From the NCBI GenBank assembly GCA_035400625.1, contig DAOMZT010000001.1:306644-370643 (forward strand): 64,000 nucleotides of DNA, in the 5' to 3' direction. The notes beneath the pieces are model-generated. The model saw only the letters and a program-made list of their open reading frames with translations, was not told the DNA's origin and made no database searches. The DNA is from an archaeon. GTDB lineage: Archaea > Iainarchaeota > Iainarchaeia > Iainarchaeales > CSSED10-239. Position 1 is the stretch's first letter, and every line of letters starts with the position of its first letter. Both the position numbers and the translations under genes were made by a program. Below, piece by piece: positions 8,633-37,215 of the stretch.

Positions 8633-9385
8633 ATGCCACCACTGAAAAGACCATCATTGAAACTGTCAGTAAAAAGACAAAGGTTTAAGCCTCAGATTAA
8701 ATTACAAAAATCAATATTAAAAAGGCCAACTTTTAAAGAACAGATTGAATCAATTCCTGGAAGAACCAAACATGAAATATTTGGTTATAAAAAGCCAAGA
8801 AGAAAATTTATTGATAAAACAATTAAAATAAATGAAAAAGAAGTAAGATATGATGAAAAACGCAAATATCTTACTGGGGAACATACAGAAATACACACTC
8901 ACCTTTGTAATCCAAAACTAGCAACAGAATCAACACCAGGCCCCTTTGATTTTCTAGGTTGGGTTGATGATTATATAACAACAAGTGGCAAAAAAAATAG
9001 AGCTGTTGTTTCATCAATTCATTTTGAGAATGGAAAAGAACTTGGAAGAGTCCATGTTGTTTTTAAAAAAGATGCACTAAATAAGCAATTAAGAAGTCAC
9101 ATTTATAATTGTTATTTAGAATTTGCAAAAAAGAATAGAAGACAAATAACACCTTTCGAAAAATTCAATGCTGATTTATTCTTTTATCAAGAAAATGGAA
9201 AAGTAAGCAGATATCTTAATGATATGATAGAAAAAGATTTTGATTTTGGAAAAAGATTAAAAGTTTCTAAAACAAAGGATTTAAGAGAGATTTTCACAGA
9301 TATAGAAAGGAAATGGGGAATAAAGATAAGAGCATATTCTCATCCAGGCCATGCCTTTGACTATAAAAGAGGAACATTTTATTGA
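8633..9385 (+). CDS. hypothetical protein: basic N-terminal tail (MPPLKRPSLK) plus a degenerate JAB/MPN-like H-x-H core; paralog of 31177..31968
   Basis: 250 aa, starting 1 nt after the rad50 stop. It shares with 31177..31968 the MPP.K/R tail, an HTH..P motif, a VxxxxxxNGKxxGxV segment, and a C-terminal GI(K/Q)(I/L)...G(H/Y)xFD. Confidence 0.6.
   Translation: MPPLKRPSLKLSVKRQRFKPQIKLQKSILKRPTFKEQIESIPGRTKHEIFGYKKPRRKFIDKTIKINEKEVRYDEKRKYLTGEHTEIHTHLCNPKLATESTPGPFDFLGWVDDYITTSGKKNRAVVSSIHFENGKELGRVHVVFKKDALNKQLRSHIYNCYLEFAKKNRRQITPFEKFNADLFFYQENGKVSRYLNDMIEKDFDFGKRLKVSKTKDLREIFTDIERKWGIKIRAYSHPGHAFDYKRGTFY
9362..9373. repeat. 12-bp direct repeat copy 2 (tataaaagagga)
   Basis: Exact match to 8616-8627. 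Confidence 0.5.
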
Positions 9386-9401
9386 TTTTTCAAGTTAATA
9401 C

Positions 9402-9410
9402 TTTAAAATA
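9402..9410 (+). promoter_or_regulatory. candidate TATA box for priS (leaderless or near-leaderless)
   Basis: tttaaaata is centred about 26 nt upstream of the ATG at 9432. There is no SD in between. Confidence 0.4.
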
Positions 9411-9431
9411 CTTGTTTAACATATATTATAT

Positions 9432-10685
9432 ATGGCAAGTAATGAAATTTCTGAATTTACTATTTCTTACTTAAGAGATCTTTTCAGAAATTATTATCAG
9501 CATAATCCTGTTACTAGTGCTATTGCGATTGAAAAAAGAGAGGTCGGTATAGGGGATTTTGGTAAAAAGATTAGTGCAAGGCATCTTGCCTTTTCTAACA
9601 ACGCAGGACTAAACAGATTTTTAACAGAAAAAACTCCTTTTTTTATATCTTATTCTACTGCCTATTATAAATATCCAGAAAGGCGACCAATGGAGAATAA
9701 GATTTTAGAAGGCTCAGATATTGTCTACGAGTTTGATGCTGATGATTTTAATCTTCCTTGTAAAGAAGAACACGATATTTGGTTTTGCAAAAGCTGTGAG
9801 GCAAGTGGCAAGGGCCATAAAGATATCTGCCCAGAATGCCAAGGCAAACTTGAAGTTATTGAATGGATTTGCGACAAATGCCTAGGTCATGCAAAATCAG
9901 AAACTCTTCGTTTGATAGATTTTCTAGAAACTGAGTTTAAGCTTGATTCTTCAAGTTTTGTGATTTCTTTTTCTGGTTCTAAGGGCTATCATTTGAGAGT
10001 AACAGATAAAAGCATAATACCGTTATCTAAGTCTTCTCGTCTTCAGATGATGAACTATATCCAAGGCAAAGATTTAGATCTTAGTAAACTTGGCTTTGAA
10101 TATAAGGGAAAACAATGGTTTTGCCCAAGTCCTGACACAAAGAATGGCTGGGCAGGCAAACTAATCACATATCTAAGAAACTACATACAAGAAATGGACG
10201 AAAAAACCCTGAAAAAAGACTTTTCTTATTCAAAAGTAAAGATTAATAAACTGCTAGAGCATAAAGAAGTTATTTTAAATAAGATGTATAATAATATATT
10301 ATGGCATAATTTTACAAGCGAATCTGTAAAGGATGCTAAATTTTGGGAGGATTTATTAGCTATTGCAATTTCTAGGCTTGGTTTTAGAATAGATCCAGCA
10401 TCTTCAAGTGATATCTATAAAATCATGAGAATGCCAGATACCATTCATGGCGGAACCGGGCTTTTATCAACTAAACTAAAAGACAGAGAAGCACTAGAAA
10501 AGTTTGATCCTTTTTTGGATCCTGTTCTTTTTAGGCCTGATAAAGATAGAAATGGAGAAGTGACTAGGCCTGTTCCAAGGTTTAGGTTGCTTGAGCAAGA
10601 GTTTGGTCCTTATAGTCTAGGCGAGAAACTAGAACTCCCAGAATACGTAAGTGTTTATTTATTATTAAAAGGTGTATTAAAATGA
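9432..10685 (+). CDS. priS: DNA primase small (catalytic) subunit PriS
   Basis: Catalytic YEFDADD, the Zn-knuckle cysteines CKSCE..CPECQG..CDKC, and SFSGSKGYHLRV. Confidence 0.9.
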   Translation: MASNEISEFTISYLRDLFRNYYQHNPVTSAIAIEKREVGIGDFGKKISARHLAFSNNAGLNRFLTEKTPFFISYSTAYYKYPERRPMENKILEGSDIVYEFDADDFNLPCKEEHDIWFCKSCEASGKGHKDICPECQGKLEVIEWICDKCLGHAKSETLRLIDFLETEFKLDSSSFVISFSGSKGYHLRVTDKSIIPLSKSSRLQMMNYIQGKDLDLSKLGFEYKGKQWFCPSPDTKNGWAGKLITYLRNYIQEMDEKTLKKDFSYSKVKINKLLEHKEVILNKMYNNILWHNFTSESVKDAKFWEDLLAIAISRLGFRIDPASSSDIYKIMRMPDTIHGGTGLLSTKLKDREALEKFDPFLDPVLFRPDKDRNGEVTRPVPRFRLLEQEFGPYSLGEKLELPEYVSVYLLLKGVLK

Positions 10686-11239: not shown

Positions 11240-11253
11240 GTTGTGAATATAAG

Positions 11254-12027: not shown

Positions 12028-12040
12028 GGGTGTTTAAAAT

Positions 12041-12835
12041 ATGGTAACAAAAATTGATGTTATTAAACAGCAAAAACTAAAAAATCCAGTAATGCTTGTT
12101 GGTCTTCCTGGCATTGGTCTTGTTGGCAAGATTGCAATTGATTATCTGGTCTTTGAATTACAACCAAAATCAAATGTTTATGCAACTATTGTTTCTGATA
12201 CTTTTCCTCCAGCAGTTCATGCTAAATCATCATTATTAGAATTAATTTCTGATAAGATTTATCTTTATAAAGGAAAATCAAGAGATTTTCTTTTTGTAGC
12301 AGGGCCAGTTCAGCCAAACCTGACAAACCTTTCTAATAGCCAAGAACACTATGAGTTCTCTGCCAAGCTTGCTGAGTTTGCAAAAAAGCAAGGAGTAAAA
12401 GAGATCTATACTTTTGCAGGCCTAAATATTGGCGAGAAAAGACTTAACCAAAAGCCAAGAGTTCTAGCAGTTTCAAGTGATAAGGATACCAAAGAAAGAC
12501 TAAGAAAGAAAAAGATAAAAAACATTATTTTTGATGATACTCAAGGAAACACATTGATTTCTGGTGTTGCTGGCCTTCTTGTTGGTGTTGCTTATTATAA
12601 CCACAAGATATCTGGTTGTTGTTTTATGGGCGAAACAGATCAAAAACTAATTTTTGGAGATCAGGGTTCTGCAAGAAGTGTTGTTGGAGCAATTTGTGCT
12701 CTCTTTGATTTTAAAGTTGATATGAAAAAAATAGATATTAAAGCAAAAAAAATTGAAGAATCATTTAAAGAAATTCAAAAAGAGATAAAAGAAATAGCAA
12801 AGAAAAAAGAAGAGCCAGTAAGTTATATCAGGTGA
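12041..12835 (+). CDS. PAC2-family proteasome assembly chaperone
   Basis: PVMLVGLPGIGLVGKIAIDYL ... LISGVAGLLVG pattern of PAC2/COG1938 proteins. Confidence 0.7.
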   Translation: MVTKIDVIKQQKLKNPVMLVGLPGIGLVGKIAIDYLVFELQPKSNVYATIVSDTFPPAVHAKSSLLELISDKIYLYKGKSRDFLFVAGPVQPNLTNLSNSQEHYEFSAKLAEFAKKQGVKEIYTFAGLNIGEKRLNQKPRVLAVSSDKDTKERLRKKKIKNIIFDDTQGNTLISGVAGLLVGVAYYNHKISGCCFMGETDQKLIFGDQGSARSVVGAICALFDFKVDMKKIDIKAKKIEESFKEIQKEIKEIAKKKEEPVSYIR

Positions 12836-12845
12836 TTTTTTTAAT

Positions 12846-14387
12846 ATGACTACAAAAGAAGAAAAAGGAATTGTAATTTCTACAATTGATGGCCCATCAA
12901 CCACTAAGCTTTCTTTTGTATGTACAAAAAATGACGTCTTTAAAGGAGAATATATCCAGATCGATTATTCTCAAGGCTCTCTTATTGGTTTAGTTACTGA
13001 TGTTATAAAAAGAAACAGATATTTTGAAAACTCTGATTCTGTTAAGGACTTTGAAAATAATAATGTTGATATTAAAAAATTATTTCCAAGTGATGAGTGG
13101 GAGTTTCTTGAAGCTGTTGTTAAGCCTCTTGGAGTTTATTCTGTTTTGAAAGGCTTTACAAGAACAAATCTTCCAGTCTCTCCTGGCCAAAAGGTTTATT
13201 TAGCAGATCCAGTCGTGCTTTCTAAATTTTTGCATTTTGATAAGTCAGGGGTTTTTCTAGGTGCTATTGAGCATCCAAATCTTGATGTTGCTCTTAATGT
13301 TGATAGGCTTTTACAAAAGCACTTGGCAATTCTTGCACAATCAGGTGCAGGAAAAAGTTATCTAACTTCTGTAATTATTGAGGAATTACTTGAGAGAACA
13401 AAAGAACAAGGAAGAATAGCCGTAGTGTTATTTGATACTCATGGAGAATATTCTTCTTTTGCCCAAAGCACAACAGACAAAACCAAAACTGATTATTCTT
13501 CTAAGGTCACATTAATAGATTCAAAAGATGTTAAGATTGGTTGTACAGGCCTATCTGCTGGCTTTTACTCTACATTGATTCCAGAGCTAACAGCTCCTCA
13601 AAAGATAAGGCTTTCAAAAGTCATAACAAAACTAAATGAAGACAAGAAACATGGCGCGGGCCCTTATTCTTTACAAACAATAATTAAAGAAATAGACAAT
13701 CTAGAAGAAGACGATAAAACTGCAAAGAACCTAAGAGATCGTCTTTTGGACTTGGAGCGTTATCGCCTTTTTGATAAGATTGATTATCCATCAATTAATG
13801 ATGTTGTGTCTCCAGGAAAACTAACAATCATTGATCTATCAAGAGAAATAGATAAAAAGAAAAAGCAAATTATTTTGTATTATTTTGCAAACAAACTTTT
13901 TAGAGCAAGAATGGAACACAATTCTGTTCCGCCATTTACTCTTGTAGTTGAAGAAGCACATCAATATGCTCCGGAGATGGCAAGTAGAGAGAATGCTCTT
14001 GCAAAAAACATTCTGGAAACAATTGCAAGAGAAGGAAGAAAGTTTGGAGCAAGCGTTTGGTTAATCTCTCAAAGGCCAGTAAAGTTGTCTACCACCATCT
14101 TGTCTCAAGCAAACACTCACATTATCTTAAGAATAACAAATCCTTATGATCTTAAGCATATTGGTGAATCAAGCGAAGGCCTTGATCAAAATTCCATTAA
14201 TATGATAACATCTCTAAGGGTTGGCGAAGCATTGATTGTTGGCGAAGCTAGTTCTTATCCTGTTTTTTTCAAGGTTAGAAAAAGGAAATCACAAGAATCA
14301 CATCTTGATGTCTCGTTATCTGGTCTTGCCAAGTCCTTTGAGGCAAGAAAAGAAAAGAACAACAAAGAGCTTGATGAATTAATCTAA
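12846..14387 (+). CDS. herA: HerA-type (DUF87) hexameric ATPase/helicase
   Basis: N-terminal HAS-barrel-like region, Walker A AQSGAGKSY, and Walker B LVVEEAHQYAP. Length is 513 aa. Confidence 0.8.
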   Translation: MTTKEEKGIVISTIDGPSTTKLSFVCTKNDVFKGEYIQIDYSQGSLIGLVTDVIKRNRYFENSDSVKDFENNNVDIKKLFPSDEWEFLEAVVKPLGVYSVLKGFTRTNLPVSPGQKVYLADPVVLSKFLHFDKSGVFLGAIEHPNLDVALNVDRLLQKHLAILAQSGAGKSYLTSVIIEELLERTKEQGRIAVVLFDTHGEYSSFAQSTTDKTKTDYSSKVTLIDSKDVKIGCTGLSAGFYSTLIPELTAPQKIRLSKVITKLNEDKKHGAGPYSLQTIIKEIDNLEEDDKTAKNLRDRLLDLERYRLFDKIDYPSINDVVSPGKLTIIDLSREIDKKKKQIILYYFANKLFRARMEHNSVPPFTLVVEEAHQYAPEMASRENALAKNILETIAREGRKFGASVWLISQRPVKLSTTILSQANTHIILRITNPYDLKHIGESSEGLDQNSINMITSLRVGEALIVGEASSYPVFFKVRKRKSQESHLDVSLSGLAKSFEARKEKNNKELDELI

Positions 14388-14435
14388 TAAAATATATTTA
14401 TTAAGTATTTGGTTTTCATTATTATTATGTATTTG

Positions 14436-14882: not shown

Positions 14883-14976
14883 TATGAATATTGCAATTTT
14901 TACTTACAATAAAGATAAATAAATCTTCTTAGTTTATATTTATTTTCTTTCTATATAATATTAATAGGAATCAAAT

Positions 14977-16203: not shown

Positions 16204-16212
16204 GTATAGTTT

Positions 16213-17484: not shown

Positions 17485-17486
17485 TT

Positions 17487-27020: not shown

Positions 27021-27025
27021 TTTAG

Positions 27026-27099
27026 CGGGTTTGGGAGGATTTGAACCCCCGTCTGCAGGTCCGAAGCCAGCTGCACTATCCAGACTATGCTACAAACCC
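27026..27099 (-). tRNA. tRNA-Arg (anticodon TCG), no encoded CCA
   Basis: Hand-folded cloverleaf from GGGTTTGTAGCATAGTCTGGATAGTGCAGCTGGCTTCGGACCTGCAGACGGGGGTTCAAATCCTCCCAAACCCG. It has a 7-bp acceptor stem, a GG in the D loop, the anticodon loop CTTCGGA, and a T loop TTCAAAT. The anticodon stem has one U-U mismatch. Confidence 0.85.
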
Positions 27100-27366: not shown

Positions 27367-27377
27367 AGGTGAAATAT

Positions 27378-28935: not shown

Positions 28936-29395
28936 ATTGGTTTTTATTTTAGTGATGCTTACTTTGATGCTTCCTGCAACAACGCATCATTCAGCTATTG
29001 TTACCTATAGTGCTCAAGCTCAGGCAAATGATCTTTTGTTATTGACAGATCAAGCGATTGCTGATGCTCTAGCTGATGGCTCTCACAGTAGTTGTTCAGC
29101 AAGTAACTCACAGGTTCAAAATTATGTCAATAATCTTCAAAACGATTATCGAGCAATAGGAAATGATTGTAATGTTGATGTTTCTGGTATTGGCGGTTTA
29201 AATCCATATTCTGGAACTGCAGAAGTTACTTGCCTTAAGAACAATGGCAACACCACAACATATGTTAAGAAAAGAATGGCTTTTAATAAAACAGTTAGTG
29301 TTGCGCCTAGTGGTAGTATTTGTCATGTAACCGTTTCTGATAACCTTTATAGCCATTCTGAGACACAAGTAGATTATAATCTAAGTTACCGTTAG
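28904..29395 (+). CDS. type IV pilin-like protein (class III signal peptide)
   Basis: (MRI)MARKG|LFELVFILVMLTLML. The mature part is Cys-containing and S/T/N-rich. The start may be 28913. Confidence 0.6.
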   Translation: MRIMARKGLFELVFILVMLTLMLPATTHHSAIVTYSAQAQANDLLLLTDQAIADALADGSHSSCSASNSQVQNYVNNLQNDYRAIGNDCNVDVSGIGGLNPYSGTAEVTCLKNNGNTTTYVKKRMAFNKTVSVAPSGSICHVTVSDNLYSHSETQVDYNLSYR

Positions 29396-31170
29396 GTAGT
29401 AAAGTAATATTTATTTTCTTTTTTTTGTTCTTGGTCTTTTTGTGAGCCTGGCTTGTTTGCTCTTGGTCTTTTAGTCTCAGGATCTTGTCTAAAGGTCATG
29501 TTTTCATTTTTTAAAAAACTATTAAAAGCATCTTGTATGTCAGTAATGCCTTTTACAAAGCCCTTCTCCCCTGCAACACCATCAAACAAAAGCATTCTAT
29601 CAGAGATATAATCTAATAGAAGAAGATCGTGATCAACAACAAATGCACATTTTTCTGTCTTTGTGATAATATTTTTTATGGCTGTAGAAACAACAAGCCT
29701 TAGCTCAACATCCAAGAAAGCACTTGGCTCATCTATCAAGTAGATGTCTGCATTCTTTGATAGACAATAAGCTATTGCAACTTTTTGTAATTCTCCACCA
29801 CTAAGCTCTCCAATTTTTTGATTAAATAAACTTTCTAAATCAAATTGTCTTTTTAGTTCCATAGCAAAGATTTCTTGATCTATTTCTTTTCCGCTAAATA
29901 AATCTCTAACAATCATCTCTTGGTCTAAGTCAATATATTGTGGCTTGTATGATATTTTTAGATTTAGATCAATATTATTCTCTTCTGATTTTTCTAGGCC
30001 AGCAAGAGTTTTGATAAATGTGGTTTTGCCAATTGCATTTGCACCAAGTATTCCGATTACTTCGCCTTTGTTTACTCTTGCTCCTGTTGCTTCAAGCTTG
30101 AAGTTTCCTAATTTTTTAGTAAATGATGGATATTCAAAAAACAAAAGTCTTTTTGTTATGCTTTTGTCTTGTGTGGAGACAAAGGTTATGGCATTAGTCC
30201 TGATTCTGATATTTTCTTCTTTTAAAAAGCCATCTAAAAACTCGTTTATTCCTTTCTTTGTGGTTTTTTTGTTAGAAGAAATACCATATGCTTGTTTCTG
30301 TCCAAAGAACACATGCACAAAGTCGCTCAGGTAATCTAAGATTGCAAGATCGTGTTCTATCATAAGCATAGAGTTTTTTTCATTTATCTTTTCTCTTAGG
30401 ATTTTTGCAATTCTAAACCTTTGCTTGATATCTAAAAACGTAGAATACTCATCAAAAAAATAAAGATTGGCATTTTTTAACAGAGTAGAGGCGATTGCGA
30501 CTCTTTGCAGTTCCCCACCAGAAATTTCTTTTGGTGTTTTTTCAAGTAGCTTTTCAAGCTCTAGTTCTTTTATTACTTGTGCTTTATAATCTTTATCTTT
30601 TGAGATGCCATTTATAAGTTCGCCTATTTTTTTGTTATAGACTTTTGGGATGTCTTCTACCTTTTGTATCTTGTAAGCAATTGTTGTCTTGTTGTCTCTT
30701 AGATCCTCAAAATGCTGTTGTATTGCCTTGCCTCTGAAATACTCAAGCACTTTTTCTTTATCACCCTGTTTAGAGTAATCCCCAAAATTAGGAACTAGAT
30801 TTCCTGACAAAATATTAATGGCTGTTGTTTTTCCAGCACCATTTCTTCCAATAACACCAGTAATAAACCCTTTCTCTATTGTTGGTAAAGAAAAAAGCCT
30901 AAACATGTTTTTCCCATATTGATGAAGCGGGTTGTCTAGTTCCATTCCAATATTAATTATTGATATTGCTTTTTCTGGGCACCTGTTCTGGCAAATACCA
31001 CAACCAGTACATAATGTCTCATCAATAATTGGAAAGATATTTTGTGGCTCAACAATTATTGTTTCTTCGTTCATTCGCACACCTGGACAAAGCCTCTTAC
31101 AAAGATAATTGCAGTTTTTTGGTTGACATTTGTCTTTATCCAGAATTGCGATTCTTATGTTTTTTGCCAT
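29392..31170 (-). CDS. abce1: ABCE1 / RNase L inhibitor homolog (ribosome recycling ATPase)
   Basis: An N-terminal 2x[4Fe-4S] region (CQPKNCNYLCKRLCP, CTGCGICQNRCP) and two ABC cassettes (GRNGAGKTT, GANAIGKTT, 2x SGGELQ). Confidence 0.93.
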   Translation of the reverse strand: MAKNIRIAILDKDKCQPKNCNYLCKRLCPGVRMNEETIIVEPQNIFPIIDETLCTGCGICQNRCPEKAISIINIGMELDNPLHQYGKNMFRLFSLPTIEKGFITGVIGRNGAGKTTAINILSGNLVPNFGDYSKQGDKEKVLEYFRGKAIQQHFEDLRDNKTTIAYKIQKVEDIPKVYNKKIGELINGISKDKDYKAQVIKELELEKLLEKTPKEISGGELQRVAIASTLLKNANLYFFDEYSTFLDIKQRFRIAKILREKINEKNSMLMIEHDLAILDYLSDFVHVFFGQKQAYGISSNKKTTKKGINEFLDGFLKEENIRIRTNAITFVSTQDKSITKRLLFFEYPSFTKKLGNFKLEATGARVNKGEVIGILGANAIGKTTFIKTLAGLEKSEENNIDLNLKISYKPQYIDLDQEMIVRDLFSGKEIDQEIFAMELKRQFDLESLFNQKIGELSGGELQKVAIAYCLSKNADIYLIDEPSAFLDVELRLVVSTAIKNIITKTEKCAFVVDHDLLLLDYISDRMLLFDGVAGEKGFVKGITDIQDAFNSFLKNENMTFRQDPETKRPRANKPGSQKDQEQKKENKYYFTT

Positions 31171-31189
31171 GTTTAATCATTTTCTTATA
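31168..31189. repeat. junction repeat copy X (minus strand: TATAAGAAAATGATTAAACATG)
   Basis: Covers the last codons and stop of ORF 31177..31968, the spacer, and the ATG of abce1. It matches 31966-31991 at 21/22 positions plus one 4-nt indel. Confidence 0.8.
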
Positions 31190-31968
31190 AATTCTATAGT
31201 GTTAGGATCAAATCTGTAACCGTTATATTTGTTTGCTACAAATTTAAGTTGAATCCCTAATAACTCATACATCTCTATTCTGCTTTTATTGCTATTAAAT
31301 AAATGTTTATATTTTAAAAAATTTAATATTTCAATTGGATTGAACAAGCCATTTTCTAAACAAAATACCATAAGTTCAACATTATATTTTGTGTGATTAA
31401 GAATTGGTTTTTCTTTTTCTAAATATTTTCTACCTTCTGCTTTACTTAATAATTCATTTATAAAAACAATTTTTGAAATACTTGCTTGAAAAGTAAATTG
31501 TTGTTCATAAGTCAAATTTTGTTGTTCAAAGATTTTTGATAACTGATTAAAAGTTTTACCTGCCTTTTTTTGAAAATTTTTAAAAGATGTTTCATATTTA
31601 GGGCGTACATGATATTGCACTTGCCCACTAATCTTTTTGCCTTCATTTATATAAATTACATTTGAGTTTTTTGACAAAACCAGATCTGTAATACTTGGCA
31701 TCAAAGAAATAGGGTTTGTTTTTGGATGTGTGTGTGCAAAATAGATTGTGCCACCTTTACTTTCTGTTTTCTTTATATAATTTATAGTTTTTTCTATATC
31801 AAGATATACAGATTTATTTCCTTTATTTTGAGTAACATTTTTCATTTGGCATCTGCTTCTTTTTATAAAAGCATGTTCTAGATGAGGGTTTTCACTAATT
31901 GCTTTTTCTACAACCTTAATTGGTCTTATTCTGGCCCTAGGTCGCACAGTTCTAGGTTTTGGTGGCAT
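31177..31968 (-). CDS. hypothetical protein: basic N-terminal tail (MPPKPRTVRPRARIRP) plus a JAB/MPN+ (JAMM)-like motif
   Basis: FAHTHPKTNPISLMPSITD gives H-x-H ... S-x-x-D with a longer spacer than canonical JAMM. 263 aa. Paralog of 8633..9385. It is packed between rfcL (2-nt gap) and abce1 (6-nt gap). Confidence 0.6.
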   Translation of the reverse strand: MPPKPRTVRPRARIRPIKVVEKAISENPHLEHAFIKRSRCQMKNVTQNKGNKSVYLDIEKTINYIKKTESKGGTIYFAHTHPKTNPISLMPSITDLVLSKNSNVIYINEGKKISGQVQYHVRPKYETSFKNFQKKAGKTFNQLSKIFEQQNLTYEQQFTFQASISKIVFINELLSKAEGRKYLEKEKPILNHTKYNVELMVFCLENGLFNPIEILNFLKYKHLFNSNKSRIEMYELLGIQLKFVANKYNGYRFDPNTIEFIRK

Positions 31969-31991
31969 GTTTACTCCATTATTTTCTTATA
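31966..31991. repeat. junction repeat copy Y (minus strand: TATAAGAAAATAATGGAGTAAACATG)
   Basis: Covers the last codons and stop of rfcL, the spacer, and the ATG of ORF 31177..31968. Confidence 0.8.
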
Positions 31992-33206
31992 TTGTTTTTC
32001 AGTAATCTTTGCTCCAAGATATTTCATTTCTTCAAGAGTGAAACCAAAGTGTTTTATAAGGTCTGTAGTGCATTTGTTTGTTTTTGCAATTATTAACAAA
32101 AATGGCAGATAGTCTCTTAAGATAATTCTCTTAGAGCAATGTATTTTTTCTTTCATTTTTTCTACAACCGACTTTTGCAATGTCTTGTTTTTTGTAGTAT
32201 ACATCCTCATAACTCTTGGGAACTGAAATGGAGTATACCCTCCACTTATTTCTCTGTCTTTCTTGGAATATGCGACCCCTACTGTCAAGTAGTCAAAAAC
32301 ATACTTTAAAAGAACCCAGTTACTTCCTCTGATCCTTGCATAATTAATGTCTGCTTTGCTTAGATTATCAAATGCGCGATTAAGATTATTTGTGTTCTTG
32401 TATTGTCTAGGAATGTTTTCTTCTACCCAAAGCATTAACAAGTCCCAGTTGATATTTAGGGTATCAATAACATTTCTTGTTTCATAAAAGTCCTTAGGAT
32501 AGAAAATTTTCTGTAACACCTTAAAAACATCTTCGTCTTTCTTCCTATCACCAAGCGATTCTGTATCTTCAAGGGTTATCTTCTTATCAAAAGAAAGAGT
32601 AAAAATATCAATCATTGTTGCTCTAACATCATTACTTGCATTTTCAACAATTCTGTTTAATGCTACAAGATCATAATCAATATCTTCTTTATCACAAATG
32701 CCCTTAGCAAATTTTAGAATTGATGGTTTTGGTGGCAAGTCAAACTTTATTTTTTCACATTTTTCAAAAATAGGTCGTAATTTTTTATTTTCATAAGGGT
32801 CATTAGCAATAATGATGATTGGCTGTTTGGATTTATCAAGTATTTTGTCTAGCTCTGTAAAAAAACCATAGTCTTCTCCGCCTCTCTTGTCAGAAACAGA
32901 ATCAATCTCGTCAATTAACACAAGCCTTGTAGTTCCAAAAAGAGTATTTGTTGTGCAAGCAGCATTAAGTAAGTTTTTTGTGCTTTCCTTATCTCTCAAG
33001 TCAGAAGCATCTGTTGTCAGTGTTGTCCATTTTTTTTCTTTAGCCAAGAGATTAGCAACAAGCGTTTTTCCAACACCCGGAGCCCCATAGATAAATAAAG
33101 GTTTATCATAATTTTCACTCCATCGTCTTATAGCTTCTATTGCAGGCCTATTTCCAACAACTTCATCAAGGCTTTTTGGAGTGTATTTATCAAAAAAGCT
33201 CTTCAT
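31971..33206 (-). CDS. rfcL: replication factor C large subunit
   Basis: KYTPKSLDEVVGN, Walker A GAPGVGKT, and LIDEID. Length is 411 aa. Confidence 0.85.
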   Translation of the reverse strand: MKSFFDKYTPKSLDEVVGNRPAIEAIRRWSENYDKPLFIYGAPGVGKTLVANLLAKEKKWTTLTTDASDLRDKESTKNLLNAACTTNTLFGTTRLVLIDEIDSVSDKRGGEDYGFFTELDKILDKSKQPIIIIANDPYENKKLRPIFEKCEKIKFDLPPKPSILKFAKGICDKEDIDYDLVALNRIVENASNDVRATMIDIFTLSFDKKITLEDTESLGDRKKDEDVFKVLQKIFYPKDFYETRNVIDTLNINWDLLMLWVEENIPRQYKNTNNLNRAFDNLSKADINYARIRGSNWVLLKYVFDYLTVGVAYSKKDREISGGYTPFQFPRVMRMYTTKNKTLQKSVVEKMKEKIHCSKRIILRDYLPFLLIIAKTNKCTTDLIKHFGFTLEEMKYLGAKITEKQYKKIME

Positions 33207-33241
33207 AATATAATATAACTAAAGAAAGTATTAAAATAGCC

Positions 33242-34192
33242 TTAGATTTTTTTATCTTCGTTTTTTGTGTTTTTCAAAACATCTGCAAAGCTTTGTTTAT
33301 TTTTGGAGGCAATTTCAAGAAATTTATTTTTCTTTGTTTCCCATTTCTTTCCTGTTCTTGTGTTTGCAAGTCCTCCTCTTGCTGTTTCTTTTAGTTCTTC
33401 ATCCATTCTTTTTCCTATCTCATCCATGGCGCTTGCAACTTCATCAAATGGGATATAAGATTTGATTCCAGACAATGCCATCTGTGCAGCAATAAAAGCA
33501 ACACCTACACTTGTCGCGTTTCTTTTTCTGCAAGGAACTGAAACAATACCTGCTACAGGATCACAAACAAGGCCAAGCATGTTTTTTAATGCAAGTGCTG
33601 CTGCGTTTTCAACCATCTCTGGGTTAGTGTTGTCTTTGTAAAGAAGATGAATGATTGCTCCTGCTGCCATTGCAACTGCAGAACCACATTCTGCTTGGCA
33701 ACCATGTACTGCCCCAGAGATTGAGGCATTTTTAATAATTGATAGCTCTATTGCTGCAGCTGTTAGAAGTGCATTTTGAATATCTTTCTCAGAACAATTA
33801 TAGTCCTGAGCAACAGCAATGATACAGCCAGGCACTATTCCCGAAGAGCCTGCTGTTGGGCAAGCAATAACAGTTCCCATATTAAGGTTATTTTCAGTAA
33901 TTGCTAATGCAAAAACACAAGCTTTGTGAAGAGTGTTTCCTAAGATCCTTGTTTTCTTGTTGGCCATCTTAATGGAATCAGATGAGAACATCAGGTTCTT
34001 GAATTTATAATGGCCTTTAAGTCCAGAGTTTATTCCTCTTTTAAAGGTATTTATAGAATTATTTAGCTTATTTGAGATTTCTTTATCGCTTCTTTTAAAG
34101 CTAGTTCTTTCATCTTCTTTTACGATTTCTGCAATTGTTGTTTTTCTTTCTTTTGCGAGTTTTACAATATTTCTAAGTATGTACTCTGTCAT
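33242..34192 (-). CDS. sdaAA: L-serine dehydratase (iron-sulfur dependent), alpha subunit
   Basis: ACPTAGSSGIVPG and SGAVHGCQAECGSA motifs. Confidence 0.85.
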   Translation of the reverse strand: MTEYILRNIVKLAKERKTTIAEIVKEDERTSFKRSDKEISNKLNNSINTFKRGINSGLKGHYKFKNLMFSSDSIKMANKKTRILGNTLHKACVFALAITENNLNMGTVIACPTAGSSGIVPGCIIAVAQDYNCSEKDIQNALLTAAAIELSIIKNASISGAVHGCQAECGSAVAMAAGAIIHLLYKDNTNPEMVENAAALALKNMLGLVCDPVAGIVSVPCRKRNATSVGVAFIAAQMALSGIKSYIPFDEVASAMDEIGKRMDEELKETARGGLANTRTGKKWETKKNKFLEIASKNKQSFADVLKNTKNEDKKI

Positions 34193-34605
34193 AATGATGC
34201 AACCTCATTAAATTTAATTCTCCCGCCACCAACAGAGCTACCTCTAAAATATCTTGTTGTGTTTTCCTTGTTTGTTACAGCAAGAAACACAGTGTTTGGG
34301 TGATAATTTTCATTAATATGATGATGCCATTCAATCTTTATTCCTTTTTTATAAGCAAATTCAAAAGAAAAAGGTATTTTTGGGTCTGTTTCTTCAAATC
34401 CCAATAATCCAGCAACTAGCGCACTTTTTGTCATGTGTGCATCCCCTGTATCAGCAAGTGAGTTATATAAAACAATTTTTATTGCTTTGATATCTTTTAC
34501 TTTACTATGCACTTTAAGGCCGATTTTCATTACACCAGCAGTATGAGAACTAGAAGGACCAACAATCTCAGAAGTAACAAGATCAAGCAAGCTAATGTAA
34601 GCCAT
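34189..34605 (-). CDS. sdaAB: L-serine dehydratase, beta subunit
   Basis: MAYISLLDLVTSEIVGPSSSHTAG is the N-terminal signature. ATGA overlap with the alpha subunit. ATG at 34605 is preferred over 34644. Confidence 0.8.
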   Translation of the reverse strand: MAYISLLDLVTSEIVGPSSSHTAGVMKIGLKVHSKVKDIKAIKIVLYNSLADTGDAHMTKSALVAGLLGFEETDPKIPFSFEFAYKKGIKIEWHHHINENYHPNTVFLAVTNKENTTRYFRGSSVGGGRIKFNEVASL

Positions 34606-34772
34606 ATTTATCCAACTCCCAATTTCTATTAATATGATAAACAAAAGATATTATAAATACTTGTTGTGTTTTCTTTTTTAAATATCTATTTATTTTAATT
34701 AATGTTATATTTATAAATAATTATACACATATTTTGATATTAAATAACAAAAATAATTAAAAATTAAAAGAG

Positions 34773-35054
34773 ATGATTATAATGGGAATAATTAAGCCAA
34801 AACCAAAAAGGCCAACAGTAAAAACACAAAATGCGAAATTTACCGCTAGTAATAAAGGAAGACTATTTGCATCTAGCATGGTGGAGAAAACACCAGATGG
34901 GCGCATAAGATTAAGAAAATCCTCACAAAAGGTAACAAAACCAAATTACACAAAATCTGAATTAATTAACATATTAAAATGGGTGGATAATCCAAGAGGT
35001 TATTTTTTAGAAGAAGGAATGACTTTAAAAGATTTAAAAAAAAATAAAAAATAA
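34773..35054 (+). CDS. small basic hypothetical protein (tail GIIKPKPKRPTVK)
   Basis: 93-aa ORF, K-rich at both ends. No recognisable family. Confidence 0.45.
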   Translation: MIIMGIIKPKPKRPTVKTQNAKFTASNKGRLFASSMVEKTPDGRIRLRKSSQKVTKPNYTKSELINILKWVDNPRGYFLEEGMTLKDLKKNKK

Positions 35055-35085
35055 AAACAAAGAGAGTGTAGTAAAAATAAAGGAT

Positions 35086-35634
35086 GTGCGTGATCATTAT
35101 CCTTTAAATGAGTTGGCGAGTGTTTATGGCAAACAAGAAGTTATCAATGCTTATGGAAATATGACAGAAATAATCAAAAAAAGAACACCTAAAGAGATCG
35201 CTGGTGTTTTTGGCGCAAAACCATTGTTAGATTATTTAGTTAAAAACAAAGGCGGATTAAAAGGATTTAGAAAAAGTATGGAAATTAACAAAGTAGGTTC
35301 AAGAGGCATTGCACCAGGTTCATTAGAATCTGTTATAAGATTTGCAGGTGGCTCCCATACAGAAGTTGCTCGTTATTTTAATGGCTATAAAGGCTTAGTT
35401 AAAGTATTTGGGTTTAATGAAGCCTTAAGGAATTATGGGCATAATGTAATTAAAGCAGAAGGAGGAATAAAAGCAGTTATAAAAAAATATCAGCTTAAAG
35501 ATATATTTTCTGGATTAAGTCTTAACCAAAAAAACGCATTATATAGAGAATATGGCCCTGAATTATCAAAGGCATACACAGCATCAGAATTATCAAGAAT
35601 ATTTCCTGAGCGGATTAGAAGATATAGTCAATAA
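35086..35634 (+). CDS. hypothetical repeat protein with about 8-9 h-x-x-[YF]-G motifs (HhH-like?)
   Basis: GTG start. Motifs are LASVYG, VINAYG, IAGVFGAKPLLDYL, VIRFAGG, VARYFNG, LVKVFG, ALRNYG and LYREYG. The gene lies just 5' of pcn. Confidence 0.45.
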   Translation: MRDHYPLNELASVYGKQEVINAYGNMTEIIKKRTPKEIAGVFGAKPLLDYLVKNKGGLKGFRKSMEINKVGSRGIAPGSLESVIRFAGGSHTEVARYFNGYKGLVKVFGFNEALRNYGHNVIKAEGGIKAVIKKYQLKDIFSGLSLNQKNALYREYGPELSKAYTASELSRIFPERIRRYSQ

Positions 35635-35712
35635 TTTTTTTCTCTGTATTTTTTAATTGTTATAATTACCTTTTTAAAATAATTGTTGTTTATTCTAATA
35701 TAGTGAATAATT

Positions 35713-36429
35713 ATGATATCTACAAAAAACACAAATATGCTTACTAAAAGCTTGGAAACTATTACTCCGTTAATTCAGGAAACAAATGTTAGGTTTAAAG
35801 ATGAAGGAATCTATATCAAAGCAATAGATAAGACCCAGATTCTTCTAGTTGACTTTTTTATGTCAAAAAAGGCATTTGATACCTATGCTGTAGAACCAAG
35901 CCTTATAGGTCTTAATATCCAAGAACTAAAAAACATGCTTTCTCGTTCATTTGCTGAAGACAAGCTACAACTAAACCTTAAAGAACAAGGGCTAGATATT
36001 CATTTGCTTGGCAAAATAGAAAGAAAATTCTATATGTCTTTTCTTGATCTTTCAGAACAAGACATTAATCTTCCAGAGATAAAATATGAGGCAGAATTTA
36101 ATATCACAGCAGGACTTCTAAAAGAAATAATAACAGACATTAATCTTGTGGCATCAACAATTCTTTTTAAGATAAATGATGGAAAGCTAATTATTGAGGC
36201 AAAAGGAGAGAAAGGAAACATAAAGACCACGCTTCCAGAGATAAAATTAAAAACTAAGAAAAATTTCTCTGCTAAGTTTTCTCTATCTTTTTTAAAAAAC
36301 ATAGTTAAGTCTATGGACAATGACAAAGTGCTATTAATCAAACTTGCAGAAGATGTTCCAATCTATATCGAGTATACTCTAAGTAAAGATTGTATAATAA
36401 AGTTCTATTTAAGTTCTATGCTAATATGA
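35713..36429 (+). CDS. pcn: DNA polymerase sliding clamp PCNA
   Basis: 238 aa. ETNVRFKDEGIYIKAIDKTQILLVDFFMSKKAFDTY and a two-domain repeat pattern typical of PCNA. Confidence 0.88.
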   Translation: MISTKNTNMLTKSLETITPLIQETNVRFKDEGIYIKAIDKTQILLVDFFMSKKAFDTYAVEPSLIGLNIQELKNMLSRSFAEDKLQLNLKEQGLDIHLLGKIERKFYMSFLDLSEQDINLPEIKYEAEFNITAGLLKEIITDINLVASTILFKINDGKLIIEAKGEKGNIKTTLPEIKLKTKKNFSAKFSLSFLKNIVKSMDNDKVLLIKLAEDVPIYIEYTLSKDCIIKFYLSSMLI

Positions 36430-36438
36430 TGTTTTATT

Positions 36439-37215
36439 ATGGCCATCTTAAAACCAAAATTATCTAGAAGAAAAATAAAACCAGCAAAACCAATAATAAT
36501 CAACAAATCACAAGTTTCTAATTTTAGTAAAACACTTTTAAGCAAACCAAAAGAACCATTATTTGAAGGCAAGTATTCCAAAAGCCTAACCAAAAAGATG
36601 CCTAGAAAGAAAATAAAACCAGTAAAACCTGTAATATATAATAAGCCATATCTTTCAGATTACGATACAAGACTTATAAAATTTAAACATGCATTTGAAA
36701 ATAAATATGGTTTTAATATCTTTAAAACAAAAGGTGAAAAACTCCATGTTTTCTTGCCAATGACAGGCATGTCTCCACAAGGTTATTTGTTAAAGGCTTT
36801 TTTTGAACAAACCCTTCCAAAAGCAAGAGTTACTTTTTTAGTTACTCCAAAAAGTACATTAGTTGAGGCAGATCCTAAATTTAGAAGAAAAGCTATAAAT
36901 AATTTAGAGAACCATTTAAGAAGGTCTCTTAATATTCATGATAAATATTTTGTTTGCTTTGATTATATTCAGAAAGGCAGTGTTCAAATAAATATTATGC
37001 AAATCTTGAATAAAATTTATAATAAAGAAGTAAACTATTTAGCAGTAAAATCACCAAGAGACAGGGGAATACCAACCCACATAAAAGAGCCAGATGGTAG
37101 CTCTATAAGGCCACTCCAATCTAAAGCAAAATTTAAAAATATAATACAAGAGCATTATAATGCAGGTATTGAGTTATCCAGAATGAAGAATTTTATTTCA
37201 AAGCTACTAGAATAA
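36439..37215 (+). CDS. hypothetical protein with a duplicated basic N-terminal tail; possible divergent member of the 8633/31177 family
   Basis: 258 aa, starting 9 nt after the pcn stop. The tail motif R(R/K)KIKP(A/V)KP(I/V)I.NK occurs twice. LHVFLPMTGMSPQGY and the C-terminal AGIEL loosely echo its putative paralogs. Confidence 0.55.
   Translation: MAILKPKLSRRKIKPAKPIIINKSQVSNFSKTLLSKPKEPLFEGKYSKSLTKKMPRKKIKPVKPVIYNKPYLSDYDTRLIKFKHAFENKYGFNIFKTKGEKLHVFLPMTGMSPQGYLLKAFFEQTLPKARVTFLVTPKSTLVEADPKFRRKAINNLENHLRRSLNIHDKYFVCFDYIQKGSVQINIMQILNKIYNKEVNYLAVKSPRDRGIPTHIKEPDGSSIRPLQSKAKFKNIIQEHYNAGIELSRMKNFISKLLE
36464..36491. repeat. in-frame internal DNA repeat, copy 1 (basic tail module)
   Basis: ctagaagaaaaataaaaccagcaaaacc versus ctagaaagaaaataaaaccagtaaaacc at 36602-36629. 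Identity is 25/28, offset 138 nt. Confidence 0.8.
36602..36629. repeat. in-frame internal DNA repeat, copy 2 (basic tail module)
   Basis: See 36464-36491. Confidence 0.8.

What the first reader, a model, noticed from the sequence alone, without database searches (positions are those of the whole stretch)
8633..37215. Three similar-sized basic-tailed ORFs sit directly 3' of rad50, rfcL and pcn
The ORFs are 8633..9385 (250 aa, 1 nt after rad50), 31177..31968 (263 aa, 2 nt after rfcL) and 36439..37215 (258 aa, 9 nt after pcn). Each starts with a K/R/P tail and each is co-oriented and tightly coupled to a DNA clamp, clamp-loader or DSB-repair gene. The first two are clear paralogs: they share MPP.K/R.., HTH..P, VxxxxxxNGKxxGxV and C-terminal GI(K/Q)(I/L)....G(H/Y).FD. 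The third is more divergent (LHVFLPMTGMSPQGY, AGIEL). This is a lineage-specific family repeatedly coupled to replication/repair ATPases and the clamp, and it suggests an undescribed accessory factor set. It could have a RadC-like JAB function, or it could be an insertion-prone selfish family that targets these genes.
Basis: partly seen in the sequence, partly recalled or inferred. Interest (0 to 1): 0.8.

Follow-up and report, generated by a model that had tools for sequence, protein, structure and literature searches.

The report
Two hidden JAB-like hydrolase paralogs
Two of the three small genes behind rad50 and the clamp-loader gene are distant copies of one unannotated family that carries the catalytic signature of JAB/JAMM zinc hydrolases and tracks DNA-replication and repair genes in a group of uncultured archaea; the third gene, behind pcna, is unrelated.

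Summary
All three ORFs exist at the stated coordinates with the stated spacing. Tight spacing is the norm in this window (median gap 9.5 nt), and basic N-terminal tails occur on about ten of roughly 70 ORFs.

ORF1 (after rad50) and ORF2 (after rfcL) are true remote paralogs. BLASTP finds nothing, but the profile-profile comparison gives E 6e-10 and the proteins are collinear end to end. Across 24 diverse members the only invariant residues are E, HxH and D, with a nearly invariant Pro before the Ser of PSxxD. This is the JAMM/MPN+ signature with AfJAMM-like spacing. JAB models from three libraries align to that stretch, all below curated thresholds (PADLOC 7.8e-4, NCBIfam desampylase 9.5e-3, Pfam Prok-JAB 0.16). 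The fold could not be confirmed.

ORF3 is not homologous. It is an alpha/beta sandwich with no structural neighbour, always convergent with lonB.

Synteny is conserved: rad50-ORF1-priS, and rfcL-X-ABCE1 in at least five lineages. In two other lineages the family member sits after pcna, in the ORF3 slot. It is lost in some close relatives, and two distant members lie elsewhere. No mobile-element or viral signal was found.

Verdict: a new, divergent JAB clade in a RadC-like DNA context, with substrate unknown.

The parts
6400..8631 (+). rad50 (743 aa). It has Walker A, a CPVC zinc hook, the LSGGER signature and Walker B. No mre11 lies next to it.
   Evidence: Pfam AAA_23/SMC_N/SbcC_Walker_B; sequence; no Mre11-like motif set in the window or in any fetched locus (a crude motif scan).
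8633..9385 (+). ORF1, the rad50-linked subfamily of the JAB-like family (250 aa). A GAGGAG Shine-Dalgarno-like motif lies inside the end of rad50.
   Evidence: synteny rad50-ORF1-priS-gins51 is kept in L001, L002, L006, L007 and L008.
8717..9073 (+). ORF1 JAB-like core (residues 29-147). It holds E48 (8774-8776), H88-T-H90 (8894-8902) and S100...D106 (8930-8950). The canonical Ser three residues before the Asp is Gly in this copy and Ser in most orthologs.
   Evidence: Alignments A1 and A5; hhalign against the ORF2 family, E 6.2e-10; coordinates checked.
9305..9382 (+). ORF1 C-terminal module, WGIKIR..SHPGHAFDYKRGTFY.
   Evidence: Aligns with LGIxLKFVPNKxxGYxFDxxTxxF of the ORF2 family. G229, G239 and F249 are nearly invariant. 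Separate hhalign of the tails gives P 0.0016.
31971..33206 (-). rfcL (RFC large subunit, 411 aa).
   Evidence: Pfam AAA; orthologs carry AAA_lid_RFC1/RFC1 hits.
31177..31968 (-). ORF2, the rfcL/pcna-linked subfamily of the JAB-like family (263 aa).
   Evidence: rfcL-X-ABCE1 is kept in L009-L012, L016, L019 and L022.
31594..31935 (-). ORF2 JAB-like core (residues 12-125). It holds E31 (31876-31878), H79-T-H81 (31726-31734) and S92-I-T-D95 (31684-31695).
   Evidence: A4 invariant columns are E31, H79, H81 and D95; S92 is nearly invariant. JAB-type profile hits: PADLOC JAB E 7.8e-4, NCBIfam desampylase E 9.5e-3, Pfam Prok-JAB E 0.16. Collinear with AfJAMM.
31180..31269 (-). ORF2 C-terminal module, YELLGIQLKFVANKYNGYRFDPNTIEFIRK.
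29392..31170 (-). ABCE1/RLI, the conserved downstream neighbour of ORF2.
   Evidence: Pfam Fer4_RLI + 2x ABC_tran.
35713..36429 (+). pcna (238 aa).
   Evidence: Pfam PCNA_N and PCNA_C.
36439..37215 (+). ORF3 (258 aa), not a family member. It has a disordered basic N-terminus (residues 1-70) and an alpha/beta/alpha sandwich domain (70-258).
   Evidence: AF2 pLDDT 75.7, pTM 0.71. No PDB or BFVD neighbour at E<=1e-3; best TM about 0.4. No Pfam or NCBIfam hit. No homology to A1, A2 or A4.
36464..36679 (+). Tandem duplication inside the ORF3 N-terminus (78-nt copies at 36464-36541 and 36602-36679, 71% identical). It doubles the basic segment RRKIKPAKPIIINK / RKKIKPVKPVIYNK.
   Evidence: the 230-aa orthologs lack the first copy.
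37218..39146 (-). lonB, convergent with ORF3. It is the one invariant neighbour of the ORF3 family.
   Evidence: Pfam Lon_C/LonB_AAA-LID; contexts.

Best explanation
ORF1 and ORF2 are anciently diverged paralogs (17% identity) of an unannotated protein family found so far only in a few dozen sequence clusters from uncultured, low-GC archaea.

Architecture of the family:
- a disordered K/R/P-rich N-terminal tail of variable length;
- a core of about 115 residues whose only invariant residues are Glu, His-x-His and Asp, with a nearly invariant Pro just before the Ser of PSxxD and a Pro two to three residues before the Glu;
- a helical insert of variable length;
- a conserved C-terminal beta-hairpin-like module, (L/W)GIKxR(F)xPNKxxG(Y/H)xFDxxxxxF.

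The core pattern is the catalytic signature of JAB/JAMM (MPN+) zinc hydrolases. The inferred mechanism follows from that family. The two His and the Asp would hold Zn2+, the Glu would activate the water, and the Ser would stabilise the intermediate. The basic tail would tether the enzyme to nucleic acid or to an acidic partner.

One subfamily (ORF1 type) is fixed immediately downstream of rad50, ahead of priS and gins51. The other (ORF2 type) sits downstream of rfcL, or in other lineages downstream of the divergently transcribed pcna, and has been lost in some close relatives.

I therefore read them as accessory hydrolases working in a DNA replication or repair setting. They would be the archaeal counterpart of the DNA-context, RadC-type JAB proteins of bacteria. 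The substrate is unknown: it could be a peptide or isopeptide bond of a DNA-bound protein, or nucleic acid.

ORF3 is a different protein, an alpha/beta sandwich with its own basic tail that was enlarged by a recent 138-nt duplication. It merely occupies the post-pcna slot.

Shown here: the homology, the conserved residues, the synteny and the non-homology of ORF3. Inferred: the fold, metal catalysis, the role of the tail and the replication or repair function.
For: Homology:
- hhalign of A1 against A4 gives prob 96.6%, E 6.2e-10 over 109 columns.
- The C-terminal module tested alone gives P 0.0016.
- The joint alignment A5 has invariant E48, H88, H90 and D106, and nearly invariant K53, T89, P102, G138, G229, G239 and F249.

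JAB signature:
- The residue positions are E22/H70/H72/S83/D86 in the ORF2 core, against E22/H67/H69/S77/D80 in AfJAMM.
- hhalign aligns HxH..PSxxDL with AfJAMM at P 0.015, and the whole domain collinearly at P 0.0099.
- JAB-type models are the best or near-best hits in three independent libraries, always on the HxH..SxxD stretch: PADLOC JAB 7.8e-4 (the only family hit by more than one member), NCBIfam desampylase 9.5e-3, Pfam Prok-JAB 0.16.
- The regular expression H[STN]H.{5,16}[SG]..D matches only family members among 1207 ORFs of the window and loci.

Real genes:
- There are 7-12 orthologs each at 48-84% identity, and Shine-Dalgarno-like GGAG motifs before both ATGs.

Context:
- rad50-ORF1-priS-gins51 is kept where Rad50 itself is only 50% identical.
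- rfcL-X-ABCE1 is kept for members 28-32% identical to ORF2.
- pcna-X-lonB, with an empty rfcL/ABCE1 junction, occurs for P0040, and pcna-X for P0030.
- P0030 clusters with the rfcL-linked P0031.

Precedent:
- RadC-type JAB domains are fused to HhH, primase and DinG helicase domains, and have been proposed to act on DNA (PMC3239186, read).
Against: - No hit reaches a curated threshold. Pfam finds nothing for full-length proteins.
- Profile searches of PDB sequences find no JAMM chain.
- The AF2 model of ORF1 is unfolded over the putative JAB core (pLDDT below 50 for residues 1-138), and its fold search is empty.
- The HxH-to-Ser spacer is 8-14 residues rather than the canonical 7.
- The window's ORF1 has Gly in place of the Ser, and ORF2 has Gln where most members have the GxVH histidine.
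- Only 2 of 19-24 members hit the PADLOC JAB model.
- Tight spacing is genome-wide. Both operons also contain translation and proteolysis genes (eIF2alpha, PAC2, ABCE1). Two distant members sit after alaX-like and enolase genes. ORF2 is dispensable in L004 and L027.
- The functional link to DNA transactions is therefore only contextual.
Confidence: 0.6

Rival explanations
1. The proteins are JAB/JAMM peptidases of a general protein-turnover or ubiquitin-like (SAMP-type) pathway. Their position behind rad50, rfcL or pcna would be inherited gene order in a very compact genome and would have no functional meaning for DNA metabolism.
For: - The median intergenic gap is 9.5 nt.
- The operons are functionally mixed: eIF2alpha, PAC2, ABCE1, eRF1 and TruD sit in the same strings.
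- Proteolysis genes lie nearby: PAC2 at 12041-12835, lonB at 37218-39146, and a likely proteasome beta subunit at 20725-21366 (judged from an N-terminal TTTV motif only; no Pfam test run).
- The best NCBIfam hit is a desampylase.
- Distant members lie next to alaX-like and enolase genes.
Against: - Two separately diverged subfamilies both lie directly downstream of replication or repair genes.
- The ORF2-type gene switches between the rfcL and pcna sides of the same divergent pair in different lineages. This keeps the clamp or loader as the common neighbour while ABCE1 and lonB change.
- No ubiquitin-like or E1-like gene was seen in any of the roughly 35 loci examined.
Confidence: 0.25
2. The E..HxH..SxxD pattern is a metal-binding site on a fold that is not JAB. 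The family would be a new metalloprotein unrelated to JAMM or RadC.
For: - No significant hit to any curated JAB model.
- AF2 could not fold the region.
- PDB profile searches were negative.
- The motif spacer is non-canonical.
Against: - JAB models from three independent libraries are top or near-top hits on exactly this stretch.
- Order and spacing are collinear with AfJAMM over the whole 120-residue domain, including the Pro before the Glu.
- Bona fide AfJAMM itself finds other solved JAMM chains only at E 0.002-0.1, so weak scores are expected in this superfamily.
Confidence: 0.15
3. The genes are selfish, insertion-prone elements that target replication or repair genes.
For: - Presence is patchy: ORF2 is absent between rfcL and ABCE1 in L004 and L027, although rfcL in L004 is 89% identical.
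- A near-identical junction sequence flanks ORF2 (TATAAGAAAAT[A/G]AT..TAAACATG).
- The post-pcna slot has variable content.
Against: - No integrase, transposase, intein or homing-endonuclease features, and no terminal inverted repeats.
- No relatives in viral contigs.
- Each subfamily keeps one position across lineages down to 28% identity, which fits vertical descent with occasional loss.
- The flanking repeat is short, AT- and Lys-codon-rich, and is not seen at the L011 junctions.
Confidence: 0.04
4. All three ORFs, including ORF3, form one family.
For: - Similar size, a basic tail and position after a replication gene.
- In two other lineages a true family member sits in the ORF3 slot.
Against: - hhalign probabilities are 0.4%, 0.1% and 1.7%.
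- ORF3 has no HxH or SxxD motif.
- Its confident AF2 model is a beta-alpha-beta sandwich with no JAMM hits in Foldseek.
- Basic tails are common in this genome.
Confidence: 0.03

Closest known systems
JAB/JAMM (MPN+) metallohydrolases, e.g. AfJAMM (PDB 1OI0/1R5X), the archaeal desampylase HvJAMM1 (NCBIfam NF041370) and Pfam Prok-JAB PF14464
   Same: - Single-domain core of about 115-120 residues.
- An N-terminal helix ending in P-x(1-2)-E.
- H-[ST]-H at the end of a hydrophobic strand 45-48 residues later.
- P-S-x-x-D-(L/I) after a short loop, followed by a beta hairpin.
- These are the only invariant residues of the family.
   Different: - No curated model is matched at threshold.
- The HxH-Ser spacer is 8-14 residues, not 7.
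- The family adds a basic disordered tail, a variable helical insert and a conserved C-terminal GIKxRFxPNKxxGYxFD module that I do not recall in classical JAMMs (from my own knowledge, not tested here).
- No ubiquitin-like partner gene was seen nearby.
RadC-type JAB proteins of bacteria (Pfam PF04002; E. coli YicR)
   Same: A JAB-type catalytic motif combined with a nucleic-acid-binding appendage and with DNA replication or repair gene contexts. The function is still unknown, with a nuclease or DNA-binding role proposed (PMC3239186).
   Different: - The appendage here is a disordered K/R/P tail, not an HhH domain.
- The motif is HTH, not the HNHPSG that I recall as typical of RadC (from my own knowledge, not checked here).
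- No PF04002 hit at E<=10.
- The distribution is archaeal.
- This is an analogy of context, not demonstrated membership.
Type I phosphoribosyltransferase-like / flavodoxin-like alpha/beta sandwiches (for ORF3 only)
   Same: - The predicted topology is beta-alpha-beta-alpha-beta-alpha-beta.
- Orthologs carry FVCFDYIDTGKT, which resembles the PRPP-loop pattern hhhhDDhhxTGxT.
- An HGPRT chain appears among weak Foldseek hits (rank 40).
   Different: - No PF00156 hit.
- The best Foldseek E-value is 2e-3 with TM 0.4 or less, and the top hits are lumazine synthases.
- The second acidic residue of the loop is Tyr.

Membership tests
JAB/JAMM (MPN+) superfamily | Catalytic Glu about 40-55 residues upstream of the HxH | tested here: met
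   E48 (ORF1) and E31 (ORF2) are invariant in 24 sequences. The distance to HxH is 40 and 48 residues, against 45 in AfJAMM.
JAB/JAMM (MPN+) superfamily | H-[ST]-H ... S-x-x-D zinc and oxyanion motif (canonical HxHx7SxxD) | tested here: met
   HTH and D are invariant and PS is nearly invariant. The spacer is 8-14 residues, not 7. The window's ORF1 has G in place of S. The motif is found only in family members among 1207 ORFs.
JAB/JAMM (MPN+) superfamily | Significant match to a curated JAB, Prok-JAB, RadC or desampylase profile | tested here: inconclusive
   PADLOC JAB E 7.8e-4 at 17.3 bits. NCBIfam NF041370 E 9.5e-3 at 15.8 bits against a cut-off of 130. Pfam PF14464 E 0.16 at 12.3 bits against a cut-off of 25. 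There is nothing for ORF1 itself and nothing in PHROGs.
JAB/JAMM (MPN+) superfamily | MPN / deaminase-like fold | tested here: inconclusive
   The AF2 model of ORF1 has pLDDT below 50 over residues 1-138 and Foldseek found nothing.
JAB/JAMM (MPN+) superfamily | Zn2+-dependent (iso)peptidase activity | not testable with these tools
   Needs biochemistry.
RadC family (PF04002) | RadC-type JAB domain matched by PF04002, usually with an N-terminal HhH domain | tested here: not met
   No PF04002 or HhH hit at E<=10 for any member. The N-terminus is a disordered basic tail.
RadC family (PF04002) | Association with DNA replication or repair genes | tested here: met
   The family sits downstream of rad50, rfcL or pcna in most lineages examined. 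This is analogy only.
   The ORF1-ORF2 pair passes. ORF3 fails against both.
Type I PRTase (ORF3) | PRPP-binding loop and a PF00156 match | tested here: not met
   No Pfam hit at E<=10 in any of 11 members. There is only a degenerate loop-like motif and a weak Foldseek hit.
Mobile or selfish element | Terminal repeats or target-site duplication, a mobility gene, multiple insertion sites, or presence on viral contigs | tested here: not met
   The only feature is a short AT-rich junction repeat around ORF2.

The most novel reading that the evidence does not exclude
In this archaeal lineage Rad50 has no adjacent Mre11. The ORF1-type JAB-like metallohydrolase, always translationally coupled to rad50, would be its nuclease or processing partner, a non-homologous displacement of Mre11. 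The ORF2-type paralog would be a clamp- or clamp-loader-associated hydrolase that removes proteins or lesions at the replication fork. If so, this would give the first defined DNA-directed role for a RadC-like JAB domain.
Probability: 0.1. Interest if true: 0.85.

Novelty: new variant of a known kind. Interest (0 to 1): 0.5.

Why it matters
RadC-type JAB proteins are among the most widespread bacterial proteins that still lack a known molecular function. Their link to DNA repair rests on domain fusions and gene contexts.

Here an independent, archaeal JAB-like clade shows the same kind of context: rad50, the primase small subunit and GINS, the RFC large subunit, and PCNA. It also has two paralogs specialised to different loci. 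That gives a small, tractable set of proteins for asking what a JAB domain does at DNA.

It also flags a lineage in which rad50 is not next to mre11. In addition, it assigns a plausible enzymatic class to two conserved 'hypothetical proteins' of genome-reduced uncultured archaea.

The limits are that the family is narrow, the organisms are uncultured, and the fold assignment still needs a structure.

Tried and rejected
- Pairwise BLASTP of the three ORFs: no significant alignment.
- Full-length scans of the three ORFs: Pfam found no family. NCBIfam found none for ORF1 or ORF3, and for ORF2 only a below-threshold desampylase hit at E 0.0095.
- Consensus sequences of each family against Pfam: no JAB hit. 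The ORF3 consensus gave only a weak DUF3854 hit at E 0.008, which was not pursued.
- Profile searches of PDB sequences with A1, A2, A3, A4 and the trimmed core A6: no meaningful hit.
- AF2 of ORF1: the N-terminal half was unfolded and the Foldseek result was meaningless.
- Foldseek of ORF3 against PDB and BFVD: only generic three-layer sandwiches (lumazine synthase, SIS, WrbA, HGPRT) at TM 0.4 or less.
- PHROGs scan of the cores: nothing.
- Viral contigs for A1, A2 and A3: no relatives.
- Search for further paralogs with the family HMMs: none found among the ORFs of the window and of the loci held at the time.
- PIP-box reading of the C-termini (..GTFY, ..EFIRK): judged by eye only. They do not fit QxxΦxxΘΘ, so I rejected them as canonical PIP boxes.
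- PHP-domain, cupin, metallo-beta-lactamase and LAS/M23 readings of the HxH motif: rejected on motif order and spacing. This rests on my own knowledge and was not tested.
- Crude Mre11 motif scan (D.H.G plus GNH[DE]) of all ORFs in the window and loci: no hit.
- Paralogy among the other basic-tailed ORFs: none by BLASTP.

Full report
**Observation**

The three ORFs are present exactly as described.
- ORF1 is at 8633-9385(+), 250 aa. It starts 1 nt after a 743-aa Rad50 that has Walker A, a CPVC zinc hook, the LSGGER signature and Walker B.
- ORF2 is at 31177-31968(-), 263 aa. It starts 2 nt after a 411-aa AAA+ RFC large subunit and is followed by ABCE1.
- ORF3 is at 36439-37215(+), 258 aa. It starts 9 nt after PCNA and is convergent with lonB.
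- ORF1 and ORF2 both begin ATG-CCA-CCA, preceded by GGAG-type motifs that lie in the end of the upstream gene.

Two elements of the observation are less special than they look.
- Half of all co-oriented neighbours in this window are 10 nt or less apart, and the median gap is 9.5 nt.
- K/R/P-rich N-termini occur on about ten of roughly 70 ORFs. These include the unrelated hypothetical ORFs at 4117-5058(-), 40255-41190(+), 1846-2376(+) and 34773-35054(+).

**Are they one family?**

Pairwise BLASTP finds nothing (E 1.3, 6.1 and 0.17). Pfam finds nothing for any of the three. NCBIfam finds nothing for ORF1 or ORF3, and only a below-threshold desampylase hit for ORF2.

Each ORF has a small set of orthologs among 5.8 billion protein clusters: 12 for ORF1, 7 for ORF2 and 10 for ORF3. 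All are unnamed or called 'hypothetical protein', and they come from metagenomes or from MAGs titled only 'archaeon'.

A profile search of 1.84 billion cluster representatives with the ORF2 family added 15 more distant relatives of 52-256 aa.

With this broader profile (A4), the ORF1 family matches at hhalign probability 96.6%, E 6.2e-10, over 109 columns. The narrow ORF2 profile alone had given only E 0.009. The C-terminal 45 residues, tested separately, align at P 0.0016.

A joint 24-sequence alignment is collinear from end to end. ORF1 and ORF2 are therefore real, ancient paralogs at 17% identity. In a distance tree the ORF1 clade is a deep separate branch.

ORF3 matches neither family, with probabilities of 0.4%, 0.1% and 1.7%.

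**What the ORF1/ORF2 family is**

In the 24-sequence alignment the only invariant columns are E48, H88, H90 and D106 (ORF1 numbering). Nearly invariant are K53, T89, P102 (the Pro of PSxxD), G138, and the C-terminal G229, G239 and F249. In the ORF2-centred alignment the invariant residues are E31, H79, H81 and D95, with S92 nearly invariant.

This pattern, E..H-T-H..P-S-x-x-D, is the JAMM/MPN+ signature.

I confirmed the sequence of the archetype AfJAMM against PDB entries 1OI0 and 1R5X. Its catalytic residues are E22, H67, H69, S77 and D80. In the trimmed ORF2 core they are E22, H70, H72, S83 and D86.

hhalign aligns the HxH..PSxxDL stretch with AfJAMM at P 0.015. With relaxed settings it aligns the whole 120-residue domain collinearly at P 0.0099, including the N-terminal helix and the Pro just before the Glu.

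JAB-type models from three independent HMM libraries align to exactly this stretch of ORF2:
- PADLOC 'JAB', E 7.8e-4. It is the best hit for ORF2 and the only family hit by more than one member.
- NCBIfam desampylase NF041370, E 9.5e-3. It is the best hit.
- Pfam Prok-JAB PF14464, E 0.16. It is third on the list.

All three are far below curated cut-offs. However, AfJAMM itself reaches other solved JAMM chains only at E 0.002-0.1, so weak scores are normal in this superfamily.

A regular expression for the motif hits only family members among 1207 ORFs of the window and loci.

The fold itself remains unverified.
- The AF2 model of ORF1 has pLDDT below 50 across the putative core.
- Its Foldseek search is empty.
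- PDB sequence-profile searches are negative.

Features beyond the core:
- a disordered basic tail, extended in the window's species and in its closest relative;
- a helical insert of 0 to about 100 residues;
- a conserved C-terminal module (LGIKLKFVPNKxxGYxFDxxTxxFxK; in ORF1, WGIKIRAYSHPGHAFDYKRGTFY);
- in one distant member (P0041), a C-terminal hydrophobic tail.

**Genomic context across relatives**

The ORF1 type always lies in rad50-ORF1-priS-gins51-eIF2alpha-PAC2. This holds in five further contigs, including one whose Rad50 is only 50% identical while ORF1 is 68% identical.

No mre11-like gene lies beside rad50 in any of them. The Pfam annotations of the neighbours show none, and a crude motif scan found none.

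The ORF2 type lies in rfcL-X-ABCE1 in the window's species and in relatives L010-L012. The same holds for three members only 28-32% identical to ORF2: P0031, P0032 and P0033.

In two other lineages the family member lies after pcna and before convergent lonB.
- P0030 shows this arrangement.
- P0040 does too, and in that contig rfcL abuts ABCE1 directly.

Because rfcL and pcna are a divergent gene pair in these genomes, the gene has moved from one side of the pair to the other. P0030 clusters with the rfcL-linked P0031.

The constant neighbour is therefore the clamp or its loader, while ABCE1 and lonB change.

Against a strict rule:
- ORF2 is absent from the rfcL/ABCE1 junction in L004 (rfcL 89% identical) and in L027.
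- Two distant members follow an AlaX-like gene and enolase.

Nothing suggests mobility. No integrase or transposase lies next to any copy, there are no terminal inverted repeats, and no relatives occur in viral contigs.

The one oddity is a near-identical junction on both sides of ORF2. The end of rfcL reads TATAAGAAAATAATGGAGTAAACATG and the end of ORF2 reads TATAAGAAAATGAT----TAAACATG. The sequence is AT- and Lys-codon-rich and is not reproduced in L011. I regard it as chance, or at most a substrate for deletion.

**ORF3**

The AF2 model is confident for residues 70-258 (mean pLDDT 75.7, pTM 0.71). It shows a beta-alpha-beta-alpha-beta-alpha-beta sandwich with a C-terminal helical pair. Residues 1-70 are disordered.

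Foldseek finds no neighbour at E<=1e-3 in PDB or BFVD, and TM is 0.4 or less. The hits are generic flavodoxin-, SIS- or PRTase-like folds. No Pfam family recurs among its 11 members.

Orthologs carry FVCFDYIDTGKT, which is reminiscent of a degenerate PRPP loop. This is only a lead.

The window's ORF3 N-terminus contains a 78-nt direct repeat, 138 nt apart, that duplicates the basic segment. The 230-aa orthologs lack the first copy.

The family's one invariant neighbour is convergent lonB. The space between pcna and ORF3 varies:
- nothing (the window and L009);
- a co-oriented GNAT acetyltransferase (L027-L029);
- an opposite-strand hypothetical ORF of about 240 aa (L004, L012, L030).

In L011 a GNAT gene replaces ORF3, and in L016 and L022 the slot is empty. 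ORF3 is thus one of several alternative occupants of a variable slot. In other lineages the same slot holds the JAB-like gene.

**Mechanism proposed**

Shown here: the homology, the conserved residue set, the synteny and the non-membership of ORF3.

Inferred from established JAMM enzymology: the two His and the Asp bind Zn2+, the Glu activates water, and the Ser stabilises the tetrahedral intermediate.

Inferred from composition: the basic tail tethers the enzyme to nucleic acid or to an acidic partner.

Inferred from context, and from the precedent of RadC-type JAB domains: the enzymes act in replication or repair, on a DNA-bound protein or on DNA itself. RadC-type JAB domains are fused to HhH, primase and DinG helicase domains and have been argued to act on DNA (PMC3239186).

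I give about 0.6 to the package 'paralogous JAB-like hydrolases, ORF3 unrelated'. Within that package I give about one third to a true replication or repair function.

**Novelty and score**

None of the four HMM libraries scanned names or models this family. It is best described as a new, strongly divergent variant of a known superfamily, with a new architecture and a new (archaeal replication and repair) context.

It is narrow in distribution and unverified structurally, so I score interest at 0.5.

The most novel reading still open is that the ORF1 type replaces Mre11 as Rad50's partner and the ORF2 type services the clamp or loader. I give it about 0.1.

Noticed in passing
window 36464-36541 and 36602-36679: A 78-nt direct repeat (71% identical, 138 nt apart) inside the 5' part of ORF3 duplicates the basic peptide RRKIKPAKPIIINK / RKKIKPVKPVIYNK. 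Orthologs of 230 aa lack the first copy. The window's ORF1 likewise has an N-terminal extension that repeats the MP.KRPxxK motif, and the ORF2 ortholog P0004 has a 30-residue basic insertion. Basic tails seem to be expanding in this species group.
   Followed up: partly
window 31966-31991 and 31168-31189 (minus strand): Nearly identical junction sequences flank ORF2: TATAAGAAAATAATGGAGTAAACATG at the rfcL end and ORF2 start, and TATAAGAAAATGAT----TAAACATG at the ORF2 end and ABCE1 start. They are read in different frames in the two genes. Relatives L004 and L027 have an empty site. This may be chance in AT-rich DNA or a substrate for deletion.
   Followed up: partly
window 6400-8631 and loci L001, L002, L006-L008: rad50 (with a CPVC hook) has no mre11 next to it in this lineage. 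herA (12846-14387) lies six genes downstream with no adjacent nurA. Relatives carry one or two extra unannotated ORFs of about 265-290 aa between PAC2 and herA that the window lacks.
   Followed up: partly
window 4117-5058(-), 40255-41190(+), 1846-2376(+): Three further hypothetical proteins have long K/P-rich disordered N-termini followed by a folded-looking domain. None has a Pfam hit, and they show no detectable similarity to each other or to ORF1-3.
   Followed up: partly
between pcna and lonB: window 36430-37217; L004 9236-9940; L011 3975-4481; L027 4463-4993; L030 1073-1807: The post-pcna slot is a variable region. Depending on the lineage it holds ORF3, a GNAT acetyltransferase, an opposite-strand hypothetical ORF of about 240 aa, a JAB-like family member, or nothing.
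   Followed up: partly
window 33242-34644(-) and 34773-35634(+): Serine dehydratase alpha and beta genes and two small ORFs are inserted between rfcL and pcna. These two genes are directly divergent neighbours in L004, L016 and L022. The 93-aa ORF at 34773-35054 has a below-threshold Mu Gam-like hit (E 0.004, 17.5 bits against a cut-off of 28.3).
   Followed up: no
L019 5031-6283 and L020 870-2122: An AbiEii-type toxin gene plus a 192-aa ORF sit between pcna and rfcL in one relative, so defence or toxin-antitoxin cargo is inserted in the same divergent intergenic region.
   Followed up: no
L023 1-1534: The HerA (DUF87) gene of a distant relative carries an intein with a LAGLIDADG homing endonuclease. 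NurA is nearby there.
   Followed up: no
window 27025-27099(-): The only RNA gene detected in the 64-kb window is tRNA-Arg(TCG). There are no rRNA genes and no other Rfam family at gathering score.
   Followed up: yes
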